64,000 nt of DNA from an uncultured Staphylococcaceae bacterium (GTDB lineage: Bacteria > Bacillota_I > Bacilli_A > RFN20 > CAG-826), in NCBI GenBank assembly GCA_964416025.1, contig CAYQCJ010000003.1:7603-71602 (forward strand), in the 5' to 3' direction. The notes beneath the pieces were generated by a model. It worked only from the letters and a program-made list of their open reading frames with translations. It did not search any database and had not been told where the DNA came from. The position numbers were made by a program, and so were the translations under genes. Numbering within the stretch: position 1 is the stretch's first letter; each line of letters opens with the position of its first letter. Positions 5,379 to 61,256 of the stretch are shown here, in pieces.

Positions 5379-6674
5379 TTATTTGCTTCCACCAATAAAC
5401 TCAGCAGTTCTCTTATTTTTTGGATGATTAAATAATTGATCAGGAGTTCCTTCTTCAACTACATACCCATCTTCCATAAATAAAACCTTGTTAGCGACAT
5501 TTTTGGCAAAATTCATTTCGTGAGTAACAACAATCATAGTCATTCCTTGATCAGCTAATTTCTTCATAACTTGAAGAACTTCATTGACCATTTCTGGATC
5601 TAAAGCGCTAGTTGGCTCATCAAATAAAATAACGTCTGGATTCATGCACATAGCACGAGCTATAGCGACTCTTTGTTTTTGGCCACCACTGATTTCACTA
5701 ATTCTATAATGCATTCTATCTTGCATACCAACAACTTTTAAAGCTTCAATTGCTTTATCAACAGCGTATTTTTTTGTTTTATGTAAAACTTTAGTTTGAC
5801 CTAAAACACAATTTCCTAAAACATCATAATTGTTGAATAAATTGAAAGATTGAAACACCATTGTAACTTTGGCACGAACTAAATTAATATCGATATTATT
5901 TATTGTTTGTTCTAATTCATCAATTTTTTTCTCAGTTTCAATTCTTGATTCAGAAATTCGAGCCTTAATTTCTTGTTTAAGACTTTCTTTTAAATGATTT
6001 CTTTTGTTAACGATTTCTTGATAATTAACTTTTGTCTTTTCTTCGGCTTCTTTTGATTTAATAGAATTCTCAAGTTCTTTATAAAGTTCATTTAATTTAT
6101 TTAAACCATTACGATAATCTTGCTTCATTTGTTCGGTTGGATGCTTAGTATCTTTAAATGTTTCTTTAAAAACAAAAATCTTATGTTTAAAATCGTCTAA
6201 TTGAGCTTTGTCAGGATTTGTTGTGCGATAAAATTCATTTTTTAAATCTTTTTCATATTGTTTTTGATCAGCATTAAGTTTGTTAATTTGAAAGATAGCC
6301 GAATTATCAATACGATCAAACGATCTATTAATTTCATCAATTTTTTCATCTCTTTCGGCGACTAATTTTTCAATATCCTCGGCCAATCCCTTCTCTTTTC
6401 TTAATTTTTTGATTTTTAAATTATATTCTTTTTTAGTTTTTTTAGCTTCTTCACTACTAGCTTTAGTAGGAATGGATGAAAGATAAAAAATCTCTCCACC
6501 AGTTGGATTTTCAAGTAAATTAATACATCTTAAAAAAGTAGATTTGCCACTTCCGCTAGGACCAATAATTGCGATAACATCTCCCTTATTAACTTCGAGG
6601 GAAATATCTTTTAAAACACTGGTAGTCCCGAAATCTTTTTTAAGATGACGAACCGATAAAATTGGGTTATCCAT
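5379..6674 (-). CDS. amino-acid ABC transporter ATP-binding protein (GlnQ/ArtP-like) with a ~200-aa coiled-coil insert
   Basis: Walker [11 protein letters not shown]-loop MVFQSFNLF, signature [14 protein letters not shown], Walker [13 protein letters not shown]-loop VTHEM. A K/E-rich insert lies between Walker A and the Q-loop. Confidence 0.85.
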
Positions 6675-6676
6675 GA

Positions 6677-7456
6677 TTATTTCTCCTCACTTAACTTATA
6701 GTGTCTAAATGGGTTGATCTTAATTTTCTTGCCATCCATTTTCATTTCGATGAGTTTTAAAATTCCTGTGGATAATAAAGTGAGAATTAAATAAATAACA
6801 GCAATAATTACATATGTTCCAATTTGATTATAGGTTTGGTTACTTATATCTTTAGAAACGTAAAATAATTCGGTGACACCAATAACATTTAAAACACTAG
6901 AATCCTTAATATTAACGATTAATTCATTACCAATTGTTGGTAATGAATTTCTTAAAGCTTGAGGAAGAACAACTCTATTTAAACGAGTAGAAGAACTCAT
7001 TCCAATACTTTTTGCACCTTCTTCTTGGCCTTTTTCAACACCATTTAAACCACTTCTAACAATCTCACACATGTAAGCAGCAGTATTAAACGAAATAACG
7101 ACAAGACCAGCAATAAGCCAGCCATCTAAAACTGGAACATTATATAAAATATTAGTCCAGTTTATACCAATTAAAACACAAGCGGCTTTAAAAATTAAAG
7201 CCTGAACCATCATTGGGGTTCCTCTTAAAACTACGGAATAAATATTGCATATAGCAATAACAAACCTTTTTAAACCCCTTGTTCCTTTGCTATCAGCATC
7301 ATTTAATTTTAAGTTTTTGCCTAACCCTAAAAGAATACCTAACAACAATCCAACAACTGTACCAATGATTGCTAATATAATTGTGGCAGCAACACCTTGG
7401 AGTAATTGGATCCAATAATTAGCAAAGATAAAACCTATTTCCTCAAAGAATTCCAT
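6677..7456 (-). CDS. amino-acid ABC transporter permease (His/Glu/Gln/Arg family)
   Basis: Multi-TM protein with an EAA-like loop ([29 protein letters not shown]). The likely start is ATG 7456 (MEFFEE), 7 nt after a GGGGA SD. The ORF track extends it to TTG 7462. Confidence 0.85.
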
Positions 7457-7468
7457 CGTCAATCCCCA

Positions 7469-8347
7469 TTATTCTTCACTAGCATTGACACTTCTATCAA
7501 TTGCTGAGGTCATTAATTCTAATCTTTTTGCAGATGTGATTTTTGCTAAAGAAGCATTTAAAGCTTCTTGTAATTCTGTATTTCCTTTTTTAATTCCAAT
7601 TGAAACGCCAAGTTCGGCTTGTTTTTCACCCAAAATATCTTGATCAATATGGACTAAACCTAAAGTTTTTGAATTAGCAGCCACAATTGATTTAGCAACT
7701 GGTAATTCAGCAGTCATTGCAAAAGCACTACCATTCTTAACATCATTTGCAGCGGTACCAAATGTATCGACAGCTGTAGCGTGTTTTGCTCCATAAGAAA
7801 CAAAAACATCACCAATCATTGAATCTGTAACAGTTGCTTGTTGAGATTCGATAATCTTTCCATCAACAAAAGTTTTAAAATCATCTTTACTTACTGGAGT
7901 TGTATCACTATTTCCAGCAGGTACATCAGCTAATTTAGTAACAAAAACTAATTCACTTCTATAATATTCATCAGTAAAATCAATTTGTTTTTCTCTTTCT
8001 AGAGTATCAGTCATACCAGCAATAATACAATTAATTGTTCCGCCAGCAAGATCGACAGTTAAAGAATCCCAAACAGTTTTTCTAATAACAACTTCTTTTC
8101 CTAAATCTTCACTTAATAATTTAGCAACAGCAATATCGTAACCATCGGCATATTGACCGCTCTTTCCATCTACTGGTAAAGTGCTGTCACTTGATTTATA
8201 TTGTGTCCAGTTAAATGGAGCATAATTACATTCCATTCCTATAACTAAACGCGAATTATCAACAGATGAATTACATCCTGTTGAACTAATAGCAACACCA
8301 CACAAAAGTGCTGAAGCTATCACGAAGTTTCTCATTAATTTTTTCAT
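7469..8347 (-). CDS. amino-acid ABC transporter substrate-binding lipoprotein (family 3 SBP); probably lysine, given the upstream L-box
   Basis: Lipobox (ISSTGCNSS), SBP_bac_3-like sequence, first gene after the lysine riboswitch. Confidence 0.8.
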   Translation of the reverse strand: MKKLMRNFVIASALLCGVAISSTGCNSSVDNSRLVIGMECNYAPFNWTQYKSSDSTLPVDGKSGQYADGYDIAVAKLLSEDLGKEVVIRKTVWDSLTVDLAGGTINCIIAGMTDTLEREKQIDFTDEYYRSELVFVTKLADVPAGNSDTTPVSKDDFKTFVDGKIIESQQATVTDSMIGDVFVSYGAKHATAVDTFGTAANDVKNGSAFAMTAELPVAKSIVAANSKTLGLVHIDQDILGEKQAELGVSIGIKKGNTELQEALNASLAKITSAKRLELMTSAIDRSVNASEE

Positions 8348-8400: not shown

Positions 8401-8432
8401 CATTCATAATTTCATTAAAAATTAAGGATTAA

Positions 8433-8592
8433 CATCGATAGCGCCTCTACATAAAGTAGGAGTCTATAGGAGTGTTTCTCCATAGCCCAATCTCACACGA
8501 TACCTCTAGTGAGTTTCGGCAACTTCGCCTTTCGTTAGTTTCATAGGATGTCTCCTCAACTAATTACTAATCTAAGCTGCGCCTCTATCAAT
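8433..8592 (-). promoter_or_regulatory. lysine riboswitch (L-box) aptamer
   Basis: Minus-sense sequence: GATAGAGGCGCAGCTTAGATTAGTA...CGAAAGGCGAAGTTGCCGAAAC...GGAGAAACACTCC...TGTAGAGGCGCTATCGATG. This parallels the B. subtilis lysC leader as I recall it (GATAGAGGTGCGAACTTCAAGAGTA...GAAAGGGGAGCGTCGCCGAAG...GGCTGTCAAG). P1 can form from TGATAG/CTATCG. Confidence 0.8.
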
Positions 8593-8602
8593 CTTCGTTT
8601 TT

Positions 8603-8761: not shown

Positions 8762-9170
8762 TTATAACCTCGTCAAATTAAAGAGTATTTTATTAAATTT
8801 ATACTTCCTATATAAAGCACATTCAATAGTTGTATGGTATTTTTTAGCCAAAAACTTTGCATCAAAATACAACATTTTACATTGAAGAAAATGAAAAAAC
8901 ACGTGACATAAAGTAAAGTTATTTCTGTAATTATTTTCTTCTAATTCTCTCAAAACGCTTTCTTTAATATAAATAAAATTTTCTTTTACATCGTATTCTG
9001 AAGGGGTATCCCCAGGTAGTTGCTTATCACTATCATCAAGAATTTGTATACCAGCCTGTTCATTAACATATAACATTAATAAAACATCATAAATTTGGAA
9101 AAACACCATCTTTAATATGAAAATATTGTCTTACTTTTTGAGAACATGCTTTAATTTCTGTAACAGTAAT
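8762..9170 (-). pseudogene. ImmA/IrrE-family metallopeptidase pseudogene (paralog of 53934..54614)
   Basis: The translation aligns to the intact paralog (NFIYIKESV vs NTIYIKSSQ; NFTLCHVFFHFLQ vs RFTLTHEFAHMFLMQ; ECALYRK vs ECAVYRK). However, HExxH is lost (CHVFFH), there is an in-frame stop near the N-terminus, and about 40-50 aa after the metal site are deleted. Confidence 0.6.
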
Positions 9171-9184
9171 GAATTGGTTTTAAT

Positions 9185-9493
9185 CATCCAAAACCTTCTT
9201 TAATTTTTCTAACAAAAATCAAAGTTAAATCTTTTTAATCGTTGTTCATTTCAGCAAGATTAATAGATAAATTTTGTTTGTTTCGTTTATGCTATCGCTA
9301 AGCATATCAGTTTCTTTGCTATCTAATGCATATAATTTTGAAATTCTCTCGATGTATTCCAGAGGAATAACTTTTTTCCGACCTCCGTCGCGGATAAAAA
9401 GGAAATAGAAATATTTAACTTTTTTGTCATAGTTCTTAAAGACTCTTATTTTTTTCTAATTTTTCTCATCACTTTTCCAAATTTTGACATCAT
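9185..9493 (-). pseudogene. XRE-family HTH regulator pseudogene (paralog of 54629..54997), frameshifted
   Basis: Fragments in three frames read MSKFGKVMRKIRKK* / ESLRTMTKKLNISISFLSATEVGKK / IPLEYIERISKLYALDSKETDMLSDSINETNKI. They align colinearly with IGKYLRHLRVDHDETLKDMAAKLNVSSAYVSSVECGKRAFPDKWIEILNDKYNLNESESIELEKV. Confidence 0.6.
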
Positions 9494-35986: not shown

Positions 35987-37603
35987 TTATTCTTTTTCTA
36001 CGTAAGTGACATTTGAAATAGTTTTCTTCTCACAATCATAATTGCATCTAATTTTTGTAATTTCTTTATATTCAGTATCAGAAATATAAGCGTGATATGA
36101 ATTGTCGCTAGAAAAATTAATGGTAAAATCATAAACAGTTAAAACACCATTAGTTATTGAAAGATTATTAGAATAACTCGAAACTTCAATGTCTTTATTC
36201 TCTTTTACACAATGAACATATCCAGTTCCATCATCATTTAAGGTTATAGTATCACCATTATCAAGATCACCAATTGTTGAACCTAAAGAAAATTGCACTC
36301 TATCTTCTAATACGCTTTCAGTCATAAAATCAATTATAGTAATCGTTTTATCTTTTATATTTAAAATAAAACGCGTGTATAAAGAGCCTTTATTAACAAT
36401 TATTTCGTATTTTCCTTCTTCAACAATTAAATCCGTCTCCTTATCGTAAGTAAATTTCTCAGATATATAACAATTATTCAAACTTATATTGATATCTTTT
36501 CCATAGTAATTCATCAACAAAGTCTTGTCTTCATTAACTTTAAGAGAGCCGCTATAAATTCCGTCTTGAATAAAGGTTTGATCTATTGTTTCTTTCAAAA
36601 ACTTCTCAGCATCATATGAGGAACTCTCAAAAATCAAATCTTTAAAATTTAAATTAAGTTCTTTTATAATAGAATATAAAGTTTCGTTTTCGAATTCACT
36701 TTGTTCATAAAAATAAACAATTCCTTCTTGCACTTTATAATGATAAAAAGCATTTGATCCGGTGTTGAAATCGTAATATCCCTTGCTAATCCCCTCTGTT
36801 TTAGATAAATACCATAAATCTACTTTATCGTTTTCTTTGAAGGTAAATTTAAGAGTGTTTGTTATTGTTTGCTTTTTACCTAAATCTAGATCTTCGGAAT
36901 TTTCTACACCATTAAACGTATATTCTTTCCCAATTTCAAAATTGGCAGTTGAGGAAATTATTGTTGATTCATCACTTGGTTTTGATGCCACAATTGTGTA
37001 ATCATTTAGAAGATACCCAACTCCAACATTTCTTGTACCAATATCATTTGCATCATGAGCAGCAATCCAAAAATAATTACCAGTCTGAAAAGAAAAAATA
37101 TCAGTAGAGGCTGAGGTTAATACTTCTTCAAGAATATTTTTAGTTTTAATTATAAGAGTCTCGTCCTCATTTAGTTGATACGACTCTTTTATGGTACTAA
37201 CAAATTTTCCGTCCTTTATATTTGTTTCATATTTACGACCTTCACCAAACGAGTCTTGATAAGTTTGATAAATAGTAAAAACCACTGTAAAGGTGCCATA
37301 TTTTTCTGAAAAATATGTTTTTAAACCATCATCATATGTTCCTTGATCATTTATTTTTGGTTCTATAAAAGTACACACATAATTTTCGTTATCTAACTTG
37401 GGAATAACTTCAGTATGTTCTTCATTAGTTACAGAATTCTTGTAAGTTTTTGAACCATCTTTTTCTTCAGTTGGATCAACAGAGCTAATTAATTCATCAA
37501 TTCCTTCAACATCTTCAATGCCAGTACCACAAGAGCCTAAAAATGCAAAACAAAAAGAACTAGCAACTAATAAAATCGCAAATTTTTTCTTAAATTTTAA
37601 CAT
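35987..37603 (-). CDS. lipoprotein, unknown function
   Basis: The likely start is ATG 37603 (MLKFKKKFAILLVASSFCFAFLGSCGTG) after a CAAAGGAG SD. The track ORF extends to 37624. Confidence 0.7.
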   Translation of the reverse strand: MLKFKKKFAILLVASSFCFAFLGSCGTGIEDVEGIDELISSVDPTEEKDGSKTYKNSVTNEEHTEVIPKLDNENYVCTFIEPKINDQGTYDDGLKTYFSEKYGTFTVVFTIYQTYQDSFGEGRKYETNIKDGKFVSTIKESYQLNEDETLIIKTKNILEEVLTSASTDIFSFQTGNYFWIAAHDANDIGTRNVGVGYLLNDYTIVASKPSDESTIISSTANFEIGKEYTFNGVENSEDLDLGKKQTITNTLKFTFKENDKVDLWYLSKTEGISKGYYDFNTGSNAFYHYKVQEGIVYFYEQSEFENETLYSIIKELNLNFKDLIFESSSYDAEKFLKETIDQTFIQDGIYSGSLKVNEDKTLLMNYYGKDINISLNNCYISEKFTYDKETDLIVEEGKYEIIVNKGSLYTRFILNIKDKTITIIDFMTESVLEDRVQFSLGSTIGDLDNGDTITLNDDGTGYVHCVKENKDIEVSSYSNNLSITNGVLTVYDFTINFSSDNSYHAYISDTEYKEITKIRCNYDCEKKTISNVTYVEKE

Positions 37604-52308: not shown

Positions 52309-52917
52309 ATGAATAAAAACGAATCAAAACCATTAGATATTTTGCTAGGTACCTCTAACTTAGGAAAACTTAAAGAATACGAAGAGATGTTTGTTGGATA
52401 CAATGTTAAATTCCATACCTTAAAAGAATTTAATATTGATATCGATATTGATGAAAACGGAAAGACATATAAAGAAAACGCTTTGATAAAAGCCAATGCT
52501 TTAAAAAGCTTCACTTCCATGCCTTTATTAACAGATGATTCTGGTATTGAAATCGATGCTTTAGGAGAACACTTCCCTGGCATCTATACACACCGTTATG
52601 CAATAAAAAATGGGGGATTCGCAAAGAATAATGCATTTTTAAGTTCCACTTACCCCGGTTCAAAAGCAAAATTTTCGTGTTGTATTTGCATTGTTTTTCC
52701 TTCTCAAGATCCATTATTTTTTGAAGGCGAAGTTAAAGGCAAAATTGCTAATAATACTTATGGCGTTGAAGGTTTTGGCTATGATCCAATCTTTATTCCT
52801 GATGGATATAAAGAGACCTTCGCTCAACTTGGTGAAGAAATTAAAAACAGCATTTCCCATAGAGGAAACGCCGTTAAGTATTTAATCGAATATTTAAAAG
52901 AAAATAATCTTATTTAG
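52309..52917 (+). CDS. rdgB: non-canonical purine NTP pyrophosphatase RdgB/HAM1
   Basis: TSNLGKLKEY, LTDDSGIEIDAL, GFGYDPIF, SHRGNA. Confidence 0.9.
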   Translation: MNKNESKPLDILLGTSNLGKLKEYEEMFVGYNVKFHTLKEFNIDIDIDENGKTYKENALIKANALKSFTSMPLLTDDSGIEIDALGEHFPGIYTHRYAIKNGGFAKNNAFLSSTYPGSKAKFSCCICIVFPSQDPLFFEGEVKGKIANNTYGVEGFGYDPIFIPDGYKETFAQLGEEIKNSISHRGNAVKYLIEYLKENNLI

Positions 52918-53839
52918 TCATCTTATAAAAAATTAAGTAAGAAATTGCTAATAAGGCGACTGGAATTATTCCACACCACATAACAATATTATTCTTTGTT
53001 ACGGCACCAACAATAAATAAAACCAAAGCAACAACAAATAAAATTCCAAAAATGAGGAAGAACATACCTCTCATTTTTAAGAATTTTTCATCAGGAACAA
53101 TAACAACTAAAGTTTCTGGTTCAGTAAAATCTAATTTCTTAATGTTGTTCTTGGTTTCAATTTCATCAAAAGAAACATCTCCAATACCATTGATGTTATA
53201 AACGACATCTTTTCTTTGCTCTAAACTTTTGAGGCTTTCACTAAAATTATTCATAAATGATGGTTTATCAGCTTTGAATTCTTCAAATTCTTCAGCATCA
53301 ACAAGTTCAAAAGAATCGTTAAGAAAATTCATTAAAGTGATTGAATCTTCCACACCTTTTTTATAATATTCAAAATACTCTTTTTTCAAAAAAGTACCGT
53401 CAATCATAAGTCTTTTTTCTAAAGTTGAGAAAAAATAACGAATTTGATTTTCAATATCACGTACAAAATTAAGATATAAAAAAGAGTTCTCTTTATCTAA
53501 AACAATGTCATAAGAATTGATAATTTCGATAACATCCAAAAAGTGAATATCATCAAATGATTGGCCATATATTTTATTTAAAGCCATACCAATAATCGAT
53601 GACAAATCGTTTGGTCTAAGTTCTAAGCAACTCTTGTAAGCATCATATCCAGCTTGATGATCGGTTGAATTGTAGGTTAATTTATAAGCATATTTTGATA
53701 ATTGAGCATATTTTTTATCAATAAGTTCTTTGCCTTGAGCATAAGTAAAAGTTACTCCACATGTGGAGCAAAAAACGTTTGGTTTCTCTGGATCAGCACT
53801 AATAATTTTCCCGCACTCGGGACATATAACTTTTTTCAT
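52910..53839 (-). CDS. zinc-ribbon protein with a helical middle region and two C-terminal TM helices, unknown function
   Basis: The likely start is ATG 53839 (MKKVICPECGK...CSTCG). It has a TPR-like helical stretch and a hydrophobic C-terminal hairpin. It lies downstream of, and co-directional with, the XRE-ImmA pair. Confidence 0.6.
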   Translation of the reverse strand: MKKVICPECGKIISADPEKPNVFCSTCGVTFTYAQGKELIDKKYAQLSKYAYKLTYNSTDHQAGYDAYKSCLELRPNDLSSIIGMALNKIYGQSFDDIHFLDVIEIINSYDIVLDKENSFLYLNFVRDIENQIRYFFSTLEKRLMIDGTFLKKEYFEYYKKGVEDSITLMNFLNDSFELVDAEEFEEFKADKPSFMNNFSESLKSLEQRKDVVYNINGIGDVSFDEIETKNNIKKLDFTEPETLVVIVPDEKFLKMRGMFFLIFGILFVVALVLFIVGAVTKNNIVMWCGIIPVALLAISYLIFYKMTK

Positions 53840-53905
53840 ACGCCTATTATATATTATAAGATTAAATGAAAACACTAAAAATCACGTTTTCGTAAAATTG
53901 TTTTT

Positions 53906-53934
53906 AAAATCCCTTGCTAATCCCCATTATTTTT
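53906..53934 (-). repeat. 29-nt operon-end motif, copy B
   Basis: AAAATCCCTTGCTAATCCCCATTATTTTT (28/29 to consensus), abutting the stop of the ImmA-like gene. Confidence 0.7.
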
Positions 53935-54614
53935 TAGAAACGAATATTATTAACTCTTTCATCAACAAGTTCATTGTCTGTAATTTTATCAATGACCACT
54001 CCGGTTGTTTCAGTAATCATAAATTTATAAACAGTAGTGTCGCTATGACCAAGCAAAAGTTCAATATCAATATTATCTTTTAAAGAATTAATTTTTCTAT
54101 AAACAGCACATTCAGGAGAAACAAAAAATTGTTTCTCAATTTCTTTTTCATTTAATTTTTGGCAAACTCTTTCAGGAATCAAAATGTAACCAGCTAATCT
54201 ATTAGCTTGCCACTCTGGATCAGAAAATGATTGAACACCTTTTCCATCATCATCCTTCAATTTCGGTTTTCTATTTGTAACTTGCATCAAAAACATATGT
54301 GCAAATTCATGAGTTAATGTAAATCTAGAACGAGGATCAACTTTTGCGGAGTCATATTGACTACTTTTTATATAAATAGTATTTTCTTGAAAAGAATAAA
54401 ACGCCAATTGTTTCTCTTCATCAAAAATTTCATCATCATCTTCAACAACTTGATAAGAAAAATTGTTAAAAATCGGATCGTCCATTGCCAAATCTAAAAC
54501 TTTTAAAATAGGAAACTCTTCAGCTTCCTCGATTTTAAAAATTTTTCTTATTCCATCTGCGTATTTAATTAATTGCTTCTTATTAGTAGGTGCACAAAAA
54601 CATAATTGATTCAT
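53934..54614 (-). CDS. ImmA/IrrE-family (COG2856) zinc metallopeptidase
   Basis: HExxH in LTHEFAHMFLMQ, the downstream DPEWQANRLAGYILIP motif typical of COG2856, and its position immediately after an XRE gene. Confidence 0.8.
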   Translation of the reverse strand: MNQLCFCAPTNKKQLIKYADGIRKIFKIEEAEEFPILKVLDLAMDDPIFNNFSYQVVEDDDEIFDEEKQLAFYSFQENTIYIKSSQYDSAKVDPRSRFTLTHEFAHMFLMQVTNRKPKLKDDDGKGVQSFSDPEWQANRLAGYILIPERVCQKLNEKEIEKQFFVSPECAVYRKINSLKDNIDIELLLGHSDTTVYKFMITETTGVVIDKITDNELVDERVNNIRF

Positions 54615-54628
54615 TTATTCACCAATAT

Positions 54629-54997
54629 TCATTTGTTTTTGTTTTCTTCGGCATCTAAAAGCTTTTGCAATTTAGATAATAAGTCAGGATCAGCATTTTT
54701 TATATTACGAGCAAATTTAATTGAAATATCTTGTTGTTCATCAGAAAAATTATTCATTTCAATATTAACTTGACTCTTTGCAATCGAAACCACCTTTTCG
54801 AGTTCAATGCTTTCGCTTTCATTTAAATTATATTTGTCATTTAAAATCTCAATCCATTTATCTGGAAAGGCTCTTTTACCACACTCAACCGAAGATACAT
54901 ACGCAGAACTTACATTGAGTTTCGCAGCCATATCTTTTAAGGTTTCGTCATGATCTACTCTTAAATGTCTTAAATATTTCCCAATTTCAGTAATCAT
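54629..54997 (-). CDS. XRE-family helix-turn-helix transcriptional regulator
   Basis: HTH_3-like LRHLRVDHDETLKDMAAKLNVSSAYVSSVECGKR, followed by a C-terminal helical tail. Confidence 0.85.
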   Translation of the reverse strand: MITEIGKYLRHLRVDHDETLKDMAAKLNVSSAYVSSVECGKRAFPDKWIEILNDKYNLNESESIELEKVVSIAKSQVNIEMNNFSDEQQDISIKFARNIKNADPDLLSKLQKLLDAEENKNK

Positions 54998-55038
54998 ATA
55001 TAAATCCTTCTATGCATTAATTATTTACAAAGTTCTCT

Positions 55039-55048
55039 TTGAATTCAA
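55039..55048. promoter_or_regulatory. candidate operator palindrome in the XRE promoter region
   Basis: Perfect 10-bp palindrome TTGAATTCAA about 45 nt upstream of the XRE start, overlapping a possible TTGTTG -35. Confidence 0.25.
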
Positions 55049-55242
55049 CAAAAATGTTTATCTTTTATAATTTTGTTAAAAAATTAGCATTTTTTATCAT
55101 TAATTGGCAAAAAATCACATTTTTAAGCAAAATAATAACAAAAGTTTACACTCAACAAAAGCTTCTTAAATAGACACATTCATTGTTTTATGTCGATTAA
55201 TTTTAACTGAATTTGCTTTATAATAAAAAACTGGGTTAAAAA

Positions 55243-55890
55243 ATGAACATTAAAGACAGATTAAAAGACAAAAATACAAGAATCAATCTATTTACGTTTT
55301 TTTCGTTATTCATGAATTTTGCTTATGCCTTATACAATTTATTTTTAGGAATAGGTTATTCATCTTTTTGGTTTTGTGTGATGTTTGTTTATTATCTAAT
55401 TTTGGGTATAGCTAAACTTTGTTCATTACTTACAAGAAAAAAACATCCTCAAGATGAAAAGAAACAATATCAAACCATGAAAATTATTGGTTTTTTATTT
55501 ATTCCTTTAATGATTATTATGAGTACTTCAATTGCTTTAACAATGAAATACAGTCTTTACACAAGTCACACCAAAATAATCATGATTACAATTGCTGTTT
55601 ACACCACTTATAGAGTCACAAACTCGATCATAAATTTCTACAAAACAAGAAAAGCAAAAGATGTAACTTTATATACAATAAGAAATATAAATATCGCCGA
55701 AGCTCTTATCTCTTTACTCAACCTACAAATGACCATGTTTGCGAGTTTTGATAGCGAAGATATAAATACTCATCACATCATGAATATCGCAACAGGAGCC
55801 GTTGTATGCGTATTTATTTTGATATTAGGAATTTTAATGATTGTCATATCTTTTAAAAAAATTAAAAGCATAAAAAAAGACCAAATTTAA
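55243..55890 (+). CDS. multi-pass membrane protein, unknown function (distant paralog of 60566..61222)
   Basis: About 5-6 TM helices with basic N- and C-termini. Same length and topology as 60566..61222, with weak colinear similarity. Confidence 0.6.
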   Translation: MNIKDRLKDKNTRINLFTFFSLFMNFAYALYNLFLGIGYSSFWFCVMFVYYLILGIAKLCSLLTRKKHPQDEKKQYQTMKIIGFLFIPLMIIMSTSIALTMKYSLYTSHTKIIMITIAVYTTYRVTNSIINFYKTRKAKDVTLYTIRNINIAEALISLLNLQMTMFASFDSEDINTHHIMNIATGAVVCVFILILGILMIVISFKKIKSIKKDQI

Positions 55891-55913: not shown

Positions 55914-56003
55914 TGGCGGAGTAAGAGGGATTCGAACTCTCGCTGCAGTTGCCCGCACTACTTCCTTAGCAGGGAAGCCCCTTCACCACTTGGGTATTAC
56001 TCC
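55914..56003 (-). tRNA. tRNA-Ser (anticodon GCT), class II with a long variable arm
   Basis: Acceptor GGAGTAA/TTACTCC, D arm CCC-AAGTGGTGAA-GGG, anticodon stem CTTCC/GGAAG with loop CTGCTAA, long variable arm, T loop TTCGAAT (one A-C mismatch in the T stem), and an encoded CCA. Confidence 0.8.
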
Positions 56004-61227: not shown

Positions 61228-61256
61228 AAAATCCCTTGCCAATCCCCATTATTTTT
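61228..61256 (-). repeat. 29-nt operon-end motif, copy C (used as the consensus)
   Basis: AAAATCCCTTGCCAATCCCCATTATTTTT lies between the convergent stops of 60566..61222 and proS, 2 nt 3' of the proS stop. Confidence 0.7.

What the first reader, a model, noticed from the sequence alone, without database searches (positions are those of the whole stretch)
52910..54997. Orphan XRE - ImmA/IrrE protease pair followed by a Zn-ribbon / 2-TM protein, with no phage or ICE genes nearby
XRE-COG2856 pairs normally control prophage or ICE induction (ImmR/ImmA) or a stress regulon (DdrO/IrrE). Here the pair stands alone between housekeeping genes and two tRNA genes (tRNA-Gly 52148, tRNA-Ser 55914). A co-directional 309-aa protein follows it, carrying an N-terminal CxxC...CxxC ribbon, a helical middle region and a C-terminal membrane hairpin. 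No integrase, recombinase or structural phage gene is visible in the window. The arrangement could be a chromosomal proteolytic switch controlling the membrane protein, or a minimal defence or toxin-antitoxin-like module.
Basis: partly seen in the sequence, partly recalled or inferred. Interest (0 to 1): 0.6.

Follow-up and report, generated by a model that had tools for sequence, protein, structure and literature searches.

The report
Detached repressor-protease switch beside unrelated membrane gene
The repressor-plus-protease gene pair is real and kept by selection, but the zinc-ribbon membrane gene after it is an unrelated resident gene; the pair more likely controls a nuclease-like gene (DUF2130) elsewhere in this small wastewater bacterium's genome.

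Summary
XRE (54629-54997), an M78/ImmA-like peptidase (53934-54614) and a 309-aa Zn-ribbon/2-TM gene (52910-53839) lie co-directionally on the minus strand, with no integrase on the contig.

The Zn-ribbon gene occurs in 56 of 201 genomes of the family and is convergent with rdgB in all 20 loci read. XRE-M78 lies upstream of it only here and in the nearest sister species.

The pair is functional: dN/dS is 0.06-0.10, the HExxH+E site is intact, the fold is CapP/IrrE-like, and the predicted M78-XRE complex scores 0.74 against 0.02 for the best control.

Its closest relatives (47-51% identity) all sit directly upstream of a DUF2130 (PD-(D/E)XK) gene. Here DUF2130 lies on another contig. Its promoter resembles those promoters and carries the same palindrome type (TTAAC-N6-GTTGA) as the pair's own promoter (TAAAC-N6-GTTGA).

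Across 18 genomes of the genus, the palindrome at DUF2130 occurs only where a close XRE-M78 is present (5 in cis, 3 in trans, 9 with neither, 1 with only a distant pair).

Best reading: an ImmR/ImmA-type switch detached from its cargo and acting in trans. The trans step is inferred. This scan has already noted related XRE/ImmA cargo cassettes in other genomes. Interest is moderate to low.

The parts
54629..54997 (-). XRE-family repressor gene (122 aa): N-terminal HTH plus a C-terminal helical region.
   Evidence: HTH_31 E=8.9e-6. PADLOC HTH_VI 2.7e-9 and capH 3.2e-7. dN/dS 0.105 against the G160 orthologue. Aligns with the XREs of the trio cassettes. RNA-library contigs with 0 mismatches cover 54576-54808 and 54736-54970.
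53934..54614 (-). M78/ImmA-like zinc metallopeptidase gene (226 aa). The folded core is residues 1-180 (54075-54614). HEFAH lies at 54297-54311 and the third ligand, Glu134, at 54213-54215. Residues 181-226 (53937-54074) are a disordered, neutrally evolving tail.
   Evidence: PF06114 28.6 bits. PADLOC capP 2e-10. H102/E103/H106 are invariant and the PEWQAN motif is conserved. In the AF2 model the core has pLDDT around 90 and the tail <50. Foldseek top hits are CapP 7t5t (7e-5) and PprI/IrrE. dN/dS is 0.062 for the core and 0.88 for the tail. The tail is absent from homologues of 175-190 aa and truncated in P0006.
55020..55060 (-). Promoter of the XRE-M78 operon. An operator-like inverted repeat TAAAC-ATTTTT-GTTGA (55045-55060) overlaps the -35 box TTGAAT (55043-55048); the -10-like AATAAT lies at 55020-55025.
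   Evidence: Sequence and promoter scan. The block AATAAACATTTTTGTTGAA is identical in G160, while the neighbouring TTGAATTCAA palindrome is not conserved there. The same half-sites and N6 spacing occur in the DUF2130-operon promoter on G000:C14 and G160:C16.
53840..53933 (-). 94-nt spacer between the M78 stop and the Zn-ribbon gene start. It holds a recurring motif just 3' of the M78 stop (53906-53927). The 55 nt upstream of the Zn-ribbon ATG are nearly identical to G160 (3 substitutions) and include a TATAAT.
   Evidence: Alignment with G160. The motif ATGGGGATTAGCAAGGGATTTT has 4 matches in the window against 0 expected. No intrinsic terminator and no XRE-type palindrome were found here.
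52910..53839 (-). Neighbouring resident gene, not part of the switch: a Zn-ribbon + TPR-like helical domain + C-terminal TM-hairpin protein (309 aa). It overlaps the 3' end of rdgB/Ham1 (52309-52917, + strand) tail to tail.
   Evidence: Found in 56/201 family genomes and 8/9 of the genus. Convergent with Ham1 in 20/20 loci, with variable upstream genes. Four invariant Cys. AF2 pLDDT 92. Only weak TPR fold matches. No Pfam, NCBIfam or PADLOC family.
55243..55890 (+). Variable DNA between the tRNA-Ser 3' end and the XRE promoter: a 215-aa multi-pass membrane protein gene, divergent from XRE. In G160 it is replaced by about 375 bp of unrelated sequence.
   Evidence: blastn of the window against G160. 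Only sub-threshold hits: MpPF26 4.7e-4 and the Mbov_0395 ICE pilin-like family at 20.7 bits against a cut-off of 40.
55914..56003 (-). tRNA-Ser(GCT). Its 3' end faces the variable DNA and the pair, so it is a possible former integration site.
   Evidence: ARAGORN and Rfam. Conserved in G160. No att-like direct repeat was found.
8762..9493 (-). Decayed second XRE-M78 pair of the same subfamily. The XRE has an in-frame stop. The M78 is N-terminally truncated, with HExxH changed to HVFFH.
   Evidence: tblastn with the trio XRE (57% over 42 aa, E=5e-12) and M78 (36% over 87 aa, E=4e-7).

Best explanation
The XRE and M78 genes form an intact ImmR/ImmA-type switch: a DNA-binding repressor and the zinc peptidase that inactivates it. 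The pair sits in variable DNA between tRNA-Ser and a resident gene. It has no cargo gene in cis. The Zn-ribbon/2-TM gene downstream is an unrelated, lineage-conserved gene with its own conserved upstream region.

Proposed mechanism. The XRE dimer binds the inverted repeat TAAAC-N6-GTTGA over the -35 box of its own promoter (autorepression). It also binds the matching TTAAC-N6-GTTGA site in the promoter of the ORF98-DUF2130 operon on contig C14 (trans repression). On a signal, most likely DNA damage or ssDNA as for ImmA, CapP and IrrE, M78 cleaves XRE. Both promoters, and therefore the DUF2130 PD-(D/E)XK nuclease-like gene, are then derepressed. RecA is present in this genome and no LexA was found.

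Shown: the gene identities, the catalytic motif, the fold, purifying selection, the lack of conserved linkage to the Zn-ribbon gene, the linkage of the closest relatives to DUF2130, the promoter and operator similarity, and the co-occurrence pattern.

Inferred: DNA binding at these sites, cleavage of XRE, the nature of the signal, and the trans regulation itself (about 50% on its own).
For: The pair is real and functional.
- Pfam, PADLOC and PHROGs hits.
- Invariant HExxH and PEWQAN motifs.
- CapP/IrrE-like fold.
- dN/dS of 0.105 for XRE and 0.062 for the M78 core, at dS of about 1.
- Predicted M78-XRE complex: ipSAE 0.74 against 0.02 for the best of 3 controls. The mark was reached by 58 of 80 solved complexes and 2 of 110 mismatched pairs. 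The three runs agree in at least 95% of contacts, and the partner's pLDDT is at least 84. The family has solved or predicted complexes, so this shows likeness, not binding.
- Metatranscriptome contigs identical to the window span the XRE-M78 junction.

The Zn-ribbon gene is not a partner.
- It occurs in 56/201 genomes, against 14/201 for M78.
- Upstream neighbours vary across the 20 loci, and the pair is present only in G160.

The link to DUF2130.
- All homologues at 47-51% identity are XRE-M78-DUF2130 trios.
- G000 and G160 carry ORF98-DUF2130 elsewhere, behind a promoter that aligns with the trio promoters. C14 against L058 scores 43 against 23.9±3.6 in shuffles, 0 of 500 reaching it.
- The operator core ATTAACAAAAGAGTTGATA is identical between G000 and G160 while its flanks have diverged.
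- Spacing is N6 at both sites of G000 and G160, but N7 in the trios and in G213.
- Co-occurrence in the genus. Palindrome plus close pair: 5 genomes in cis and 3 in trans (G000, G160, G213). Neither: 9 genomes. G202 has only a distant pair and no palindrome. G213 was tested as a prediction and it held.
- Only 3 of the 15 genome-wide motif hits are intergenic. Two of them are these promoters.
- No S24/LexA was found, and RecA is present.
Against: - The motif is short: 15 genome-wide hits against roughly 12 expected by my own estimate from base composition. I defined it after seeing both promoters.
- The genomes are related, so the co-occurrence may reflect one or two events. G000 and G160 are sisters.
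- Promoter similarity to trio loci other than L058 is only marginal (shuffle counts 38-389 of 500).
- DUF2130 is a single-copy gene in 103/300 genomes of the class. None of the 30 best loci has an M78 upstream, so the linkage is confined to this genus.
- The role of ORF98 is unknown.
- No canonical terminator separates M78 from the Zn-ribbon gene, so read-through cannot be excluded.
- The genome is 91% complete, so the absence of LexA is not proven.
- RNA-library contigs can derive from contaminating DNA.
Confidence: 0.55

Rival explanations
1. Co-option. In this species and its sister, the pair controls the downstream Zn-ribbon/2-TM gene by read-through, so the membrane protein is induced when XRE is cleaved.
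For: The genes are co-directional with a 94-nt gap and no intrinsic terminator between them. The arrangement is kept in G160, and probably on the 7275-bp ENA contig that appears to carry both P0002 and P0006.
Against: The Zn-ribbon gene keeps its position next to rdgB in 20/20 loci, with unrelated upstream genes. It has a conserved upstream block of its own with a TATAAT. There is no XRE-type palindrome in the spacer. A motif that recurs after other gene ends sits right after the M78 stop. The M78 tail next to the spacer evolves neutrally.
Confidence: 0.15
2. Inert relic. The pair is the last surviving piece of a prophage or ICE once integrated at tRNA-Ser, with no present function beyond repressing itself.
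For: It lies next to the 3' end of tRNA-Ser, with unrelated DNA in G000 and G160 in between. A decayed second pair lies in the same window. A distant relative (L078) sits beside an integrase, an excisionase and R-M genes. TM215 gives a weak hit to a mycoplasma ICE family.
Against: Strong purifying selection on both genes over dS of about 1, whereas the truly decayed copy shows what neglect looks like. No integrase on the contig. No att repeats. The closest relatives are chromosomal trios at a conserved site, not in mobile elements.
Confidence: 0.15
3. A stand-alone toxin-antitoxin or Rosmer-like defence module. Either M78 (COG2856) is a toxin neutralised by XRE, or the 2-TM protein is an RmrT-like membrane toxin held in check by XRE and M78.
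For: PADLOC RmrA models hit the M78 at 1.5e-6 and weaker. RosmerTA systems pair an ImmA-domain antitoxin with diverse toxins, some of them membrane-depolarising (PMC10440598).
Against: The putative membrane toxin occurs without any M78 in more than 40 genomes of the family, which does not fit a toxin. It is a 309-aa Zn-ribbon/TPR-like protein and matches no PADLOC family at E<0.01. RmrA is an HTH-peptidase fusion, whereas here the two are separate genes. The pair's relatives show a conserved cargo and operator logic instead.
Confidence: 0.08

Closest known systems
ImmR/ImmA of Bacillus subtilis ICEBs1 and phage phi105
   Same: A co-directional XRE repressor gene followed by a small single-domain M78 peptidase gene. 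The expected logic is autorepression plus proteolytic derepression on DNA damage (as summarised in bioRxiv 10.1101/2022.04.27.489752).
   Different: The pair is not inside a mobile element: no integrase, excisionase or conjugation genes. There is no cargo in cis. The candidate target is a chromosomal DUF2130 gene on another contig.
CapH/CapP (CBASS-associated HTH repressor plus ssDNA-activated peptidase)
   Same: It gives the best PADLOC hits (capH 3.2e-7, capP 2e-10), the best PDB sequence match (7t5t, 2e-7) and the best fold match (7e-5). The repressor + peptidase logic is the same.
   Different: CapP has peptidase + HTH + GAF domains. This protein has only the peptidase core and a disordered tail. 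CapH/CapP are divergent from the operon they control. Here the relatives are co-directional with their cargo, and this copy is unlinked.
DdrO/IrrE (PprI) of Deinococcus
   Same: A repressor and M78 peptidase controlling chromosomal genes in trans through a palindromic operator, as a DNA-damage switch. The genome context is similar in that no LexA was found here.
   Different: IrrE carries a GAF domain. The Deinococcus regulon is large, whereas only two or three candidate sites are seen here. The pair's distribution is patchy (14/201 genomes), so it is not a core stress regulator of the lineage.
RosmerTA (RmrT toxin / RmrA HTH-ImmA antitoxin; PMC10440598)
   Same: An ImmA-type peptidase next to a membrane-anchored protein. 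There are weak RmrA HMM hits.
   Different: The HTH and peptidase are separate genes. The membrane protein is a conserved resident gene present without the pair in most genomes.

Membership tests
Peptidase_M78 / ImmA-IrrE (PF06114, COG2856) | Profile match above the curated threshold | tested here: met
   28.6 bits against a cut-off of 22. An own-genome search gives 29.1 bits, over the cut-off.
Peptidase_M78 / ImmA-IrrE (PF06114, COG2856) | HExxH zinc site plus a downstream Glu ligand in an E-x-x-A-N motif | tested here: met
   H102, E103 and H106 are invariant, and PEWQAN is nearly invariant across 17 homologues. This region aligns to CapP and IrrE.
Peptidase_M78 / ImmA-IrrE (PF06114, COG2856) | Peptidase-domain fold like the solved CapP and IrrE structures | tested here: met
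   Foldseek hits: 7t5t at 7.2e-5, 8sln at 9.5e-4, 3dti at 1.8e-3, all with probability 1.00.
ImmR/ImmA-type switch | A cognate XRE-HTH repressor encoded immediately upstream that contacts the peptidase | tested here: met
   The gap between the genes is 14 nt. The complex model scores 0.74 against 0.02 for the best control. The mark was reached by 58/80 solved and 2/110 mismatched pairs. Contact agreement is at least 95% and the partner's pLDDT at least 84. This shows likeness only, not proof of binding.
ImmR/ImmA-type switch | Peptidase cleaves the repressor on a signal | not testable with these tools
   Needs an in vitro cleavage assay.
ImmR/ImmA of ICEs and prophages | Embedded in a mobile element with integrase or excision genes | tested here: not met
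   No PF00589 hit on contig C3. No att repeats. The flanking genes are rdgB, tRNAs and a phn-type transporter.
CapH/CapP | CapP architecture: peptidase + HTH + GAF | tested here: not met
   Only residues 1-180 fold. Residues 186-226 have pLDDT <50 and dN/dS 0.88. Homologues are 175-190 aa long.
CapH/CapP | The pair is divergent from the regulated operon and shares its promoter region | tested here: not met
   The only divergent gene (55243-55890) is missing in G160, which keeps the pair. The relatives' cargo genes are co-directional.
RosmerTA | Toxin gene strictly accompanied by its ImmA-domain antitoxin | tested here: not met
   The Zn-ribbon/2-TM gene is in 56/201 genomes and M78 in 14/201. 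They are adjacent only in G000 and G160.
DdrO/IrrE-like trans regulon | The same palindromic operator at the regulator's own promoter and at unlinked target promoters | tested here: inconclusive
   T[AT]AAC-N6-GTTGA occurs at the XRE promoter, at the ORF98-DUF2130 promoter, and at one further intergenic site on C1 between an Endonuclease_1-domain gene and an EAL-GGDEF gene. The other 12 of 15 hits are inside ORFs. Co-occurrence in the genus supports the link, but the genomes are related.

The most novel reading that the evidence does not exclude
In these reduced Bacilli, where no LexA was found, an ImmR/ImmA-type repressor/protease pair is the inducible switch for the widely conserved but uncharacterised DUF2130 PD-(D/E)XK protein. 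That protein is single-copy in about a third of the class, including mycoplasma-like genomes. The switch works both when encoded directly upstream and when moved elsewhere in the genome. If so, DUF2130 would be a damage- or phage-induced nuclease, and there would be a simple experimental handle on its function.
Probability: 0.35. Interest if true: 0.55.

Novelty: new member of a known kind. Interest (0 to 1): 0.35.

Why it matters
On its own this is an ordinary ImmR/ImmA-type regulator pair, and the proposed pairing with the membrane protein does not hold. Two things have some value.

First, it is a clean case in which gene adjacency misleads. The downstream gene is a resident gene, and the real partner appears to be unlinked.

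Second, it links this repressor/protease subfamily to DUF2130. That protein family has no assigned function, yet it is conserved in single copy across many small-genome Bacilli and Mollicutes. A shared operator in cis and trans arrangements gives a testable prediction: DUF2130 is induced when XRE is cleaved. That could reveal what DUF2130 does.

Tried and rejected
The contexts of P0006-P0015 could therefore not be read directly. I used genome contigs and the genome search instead.
- I looked for a remnant of a deleted DUF2130 gene in the M78 tail and spacer by tblastn. Nothing better than E=0.08.
- I looked for att-like direct repeats of the tRNA-Ser end between 52000 and 56200. None were found, only AT-rich chance repeats.
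- The terminator scan found none between M78 and the Zn-ribbon gene. Promoter-like hits are no more frequent than in shuffles.
- The Zn-ribbon protein has no family in Pfam, NCBIfam, PADLOC or PHROGs above noise. Foldseek gives only weak TPR-like matches. The Atlas gives only unnamed Bacillota clusters.
- The TTGAATTCAA palindrome in the XRE promoter is not conserved in G160, so I dropped it as the operator.
- The operator motif is not specific on its own: 15 genome-wide hits.
- The third intergenic hit, on C1 between an Endonuclease_1-domain gene and an EAL-GGDEF gene, was not followed further.
- Class-wide, 30 DUF2130 loci showed no M78 upstream, so the linkage is not general.
- ORF98, and the 133-aa and 209-aa ORFs of G213, have no Pfam family.
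- Read laying: most of the stretch has no perfect RNA-library contig. Holes prove nothing, and partial matches with loose ends come from other organisms.
- The first complex prediction attempt failed because the machine was busy.
- phmmer of the single M78 sequence against the PDB found nothing. The profile search did.
Full report
**1. What is there**

Three co-directional minus-strand ORFs occupy 52910-54997.

- The first (54629-54997, 122 aa) is an XRE-family HTH protein: HTH_31 8.9e-6, PADLOC HTH_VI 2.7e-9 and capH 3.2e-7.
- The second starts 14 nt later (53934-54614, 226 aa). It is an M78/ImmA-IrrE peptidase: PF06114 at 28.6 bits against a cut-off of 22, capP 2e-10, PHROG metalloprotease families.
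- Its HEFAH motif (H102, E103, H106) and the PEWQAN motif that carries the third ligand are invariant or nearly so in 17 homologues.
- A profile of these homologues hits CapP (7t5t, 2e-7) and IrrE in the PDB.
- The AF2 model folds residues 1-180 confidently and matches CapP and PprI/IrrE.
- Residues 186-226 are disordered. They are absent from the 175-190-aa homologues and truncated in a close relative. They evolve neutrally, with dN/dS 0.88 against 0.062 for the core.
- The third ORF (52910-53839, 309 aa from the ATG) has four invariant Cys in a CxxC...CxxC ribbon, a TPR-like helical domain and a C-terminal TM hairpin. The model is confident (pLDDT 92), but no named family or strong fold match exists.
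- tRNA-Gly and tRNA-Ser flank the region as stated.

The organism is a 1.44-Mb, roughly 30% GC, 91%-complete MAG. Public databases label its closest relatives Bacillales or Erysipelotrichaceae MAGs. The sequence is found in wastewater metagenomes.

**2. The Zn-ribbon gene is not the pair's partner**

- The Zn-ribbon protein was found in 56 of 201 genomes sampled from the family and in 8 of 9 from the genus.
- In all 20 loci I fetched, it lies tail to tail with rdgB/Ham1, often overlapping it.
- The gene upstream of it differs by lineage: tuf, a 1900-aa protein, an unannotated 454-455-aa ORF, an unannotated 192-193-aa ORF, a ~230-aa membrane protein. It is often only a few bases away.
- XRE-M78 is upstream only in this genome and in G160, which is 80% identical at protein level. 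Probably the same holds on one 7275-bp metagenomic contig that appears to carry both P0002 and P0006.
- M78 relatives were found in only 14 of 201 genomes.
- The 55 nt before the Zn-ribbon ATG, including a TATAAT, are nearly identical between G000 and G160 (3 substitutions). The rest of the spacer has diverged.
- A motif that recurs elsewhere in the window sits just after the M78 stop.

It also rules out the membrane protein as a Rosmer-like toxin, because it exists without any ImmA-type partner in most genomes.

**3. The pair is alive, and it is an insertion in variable DNA**

- Between G000 and G160, at dS of about 1, dN/dS is 0.105 for XRE and 0.062 for the M78 core. That is as low as for the housekeeping neighbours.
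- A complex model places the XRE HTH domain on the N-terminal subdomain of M78. It scores 0.74 against a best control of 0.02. The mark was reached by 58 of 80 solved complexes and 2 of 110 mismatched pairs. The runs agree in at least 95% of contacts, and the partner's pLDDT is at least 84. This shows likeness to known pairs, not binding.
- Metatranscriptome contigs identical to the window cover 54576-54808 and 54736-54970, bridging the XRE-M78 junction. This is only a hint of expression, because RNA libraries can hold DNA.
- Homology between G000 and G160 stops about 108 bp upstream of XRE and resumes at tRNA-Ser. G000 has a 215-aa membrane protein gene there, and G160 has about 375 bp of unrelated DNA.
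- No integrase lies on the contig and no att repeat was found.
- The same window holds a dead copy of the same subfamily at about 8762-9493. Its XRE has an in-frame stop and its M78 has HExxH changed to HVFFH. This shows what an unselected copy looks like.

**4. What the pair's relatives do**

- The closest homologues (47-51% identity for M78) are all XRE(120 aa)-M78(180-190 aa)-DUF2130(447 aa) trios at one chromosomal site in other species of the genus. DUF2130 is classed in the PD-(D/E)XK superfamily (PMC3424549).
- Several of these lie on contigs binned under unrelated names but have 28-29% GC and the same synteny.
- More distant homologues (30-37%) precede DUF4417 genes followed by small toxin-like and Zn-ribbon genes. 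One sits by an integrase and R-M genes.
- This is the swappable-cargo pattern the scan has already noted in other genomes.

**5. Where the cargo went**

- G000 has an intact DUF2130 gene on contig C14, preceded by a 98-aa ORF and no XRE-M78. G160 is collinear.
- The promoter in front of ORF98 aligns with the promoters in front of XRE in the trios. It includes the palindrome over the -35 box.
- In G000 and G160 the site is TTAAC-AAAAGA-GTTGA. In the trios it is T[TC]AACC-N5-GGTTGA.
- C14 against L058 scores 43, against 23.9±3.6 in shuffles. The other trio loci are only marginal.
- The core ATTAACAAAAGAGTTGATA is identical in G000 and G160 although its flanks have diverged.
- The pair's own promoter in the window carries TAAAC-ATTTTT-GTTGA over its -35 box (55045-55060). 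This block is also identical in G160.
- Both G000 and G160 sites have N6 spacing between the 5-mers. The trios and G213 have N7.
- Genome-wide the motif has 15 hits, and only 3 are intergenic. They are these two promoters and one site on C1.

**6. A test of the trans hypothesis**

G213 has the palindrome directly upstream of DUF2130 but no adjacent pair. I predicted that it would have a close pair elsewhere in its genome. It does: an intact XRE(122 aa)-M78(175 aa) pair lies 27 kb away in a third context.

The pattern across the genus is as follows.

| Arrangement | Genomes | Count |
|---|---|---|
| Close pair in cis, palindrome present | G124, G185, G205, G211, G215 | 5 |
| Close pair in trans, palindrome present | G000, G160, G213 | 3 |
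| No pair of this subfamily, no palindrome in the DUF2130 upstream region | G101, G201, G209, G212, G207, G174, G037, G217, G203 | 9 |
| Only a distant pair, no palindrome | G202 | 1 |

Palindrome and close pair therefore co-occur without exception in 18 genomes. These genomes are related, so the number of independent events is small.

**7. Mechanism proposed**

XRE represses its own promoter and the ORF98-DUF2130 promoter. M78 cleaves XRE on a signal and both are induced. I suggest the signal is DNA damage or ssDNA, by analogy with ImmA, CapP and IrrE. RecA is present and no S24/LexA was found in the 91%-complete genome. DNA binding, cleavage and the signal are all inferred.

**8. Comparison and verdict**

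- The pair is a member of the M78/ImmA-IrrE family and works like ImmR/ImmA.
- It is not a CapP-type three-domain peptidase, because it has no GAF domain.
- It is not arranged like CapH/CapP, which is divergent from the operon it controls.
- It is not inside a mobile element, and it is not a Rosmer-type toxin-antitoxin pair.
- DUF2130 is a single-copy gene in 103 of 300 genomes of the class. None of the 30 best loci has an M78 upstream. The link is therefore a genus-level acquisition, not a general rule.
- Overall this is a new member of a known kind. There is a modestly interesting lead toward the function of DUF2130.

Noticed in passing
window 8762-9493 (-): A decayed second XRE-M78 pair of the same subfamily. 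The XRE N-terminus is 57% identical to the trio XRE but has an in-frame stop. The M78 is truncated, with HExxH changed to HVFFH.
   Followed up: partly
window 8431-8595 (-): A lysine riboswitch (Rfam RF00168, 76.8 bits) directly upstream of three minus-strand ORFs (7469-8347, 6677-7462, 5379-6674) that by eye look like an ABC transporter with a lipoprotein binding protein; I ran no family search on them. The riboswitch lies just downstream of the decayed pair.
   Followed up: no
window 53906-53927, 61228-61249, 36775-36796, 923-944 (all -): The motif ATGGGGATTAGCAAGGGATTTT recurs 4 times with up to 3 mismatches, against 0 expected. Two copies sit immediately 3' of stop codons of minus-strand genes. 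In G160 the copy after M78 has diverged. Its function is unknown.
   Followed up: partly
G000:C14:163-1864 (L081); G160:C16 (L096 4984-6653): A conserved two-gene operon, ORF98 (no family) plus DUF2130. Its promoter resembles that of the XRE-M78-DUF2130 trios and carries two operator-like repeats, TTAAC-N6-GTTAA and TTAAC-N6-GTTGA.
   Followed up: partly
L061-L068 (relatives in other genera of the family): XRE-M78-DUF4417 cassettes followed by small variable genes: an Ntox24-like gene, a DUF7674 gene, and Cys-rich CPCC or Zn-ribbon proteins. This is the same pattern as the DUF4417 toxin cassettes the scan noted in another genome.
   Followed up: partly
G000:C8:29248-30829 (L069 9048-10630): A third, intact and distantly related XRE(106 aa)-M78(249 aa) pair, followed by a 185-aa ORF of no family. 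No phage-like ORFs stand out by eye among its neighbours; I ran no family search on the neighbours.
   Followed up: no
G000:C1:156510-156525 (L102): The third intergenic copy of the operator-like motif (TTAACAATTTTGTTGA). It lies between divergent genes for a 596-aa Endonuclease_1-domain protein and an 876-aa EAL-GGDEF-receiver protein.
   Followed up: no
L071, L075, L076, L077 (genome contigs): Contigs of 28-29% GC carry the trio and the same flanking genes, yet are filed in bins named Acutalibacteraceae, Gemmiger, Slackia and Parabacteroides. They are probably mis-binned contigs of this small-genome Bacilli genus.
   Followed up: no
window 55243-55890 (+): A 215-aa multi-pass membrane protein present in G000 but not in G160. 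It gives only sub-threshold hits, to MpPF26 and to a mycoplasma ICE pilin-like family.
   Followed up: partly
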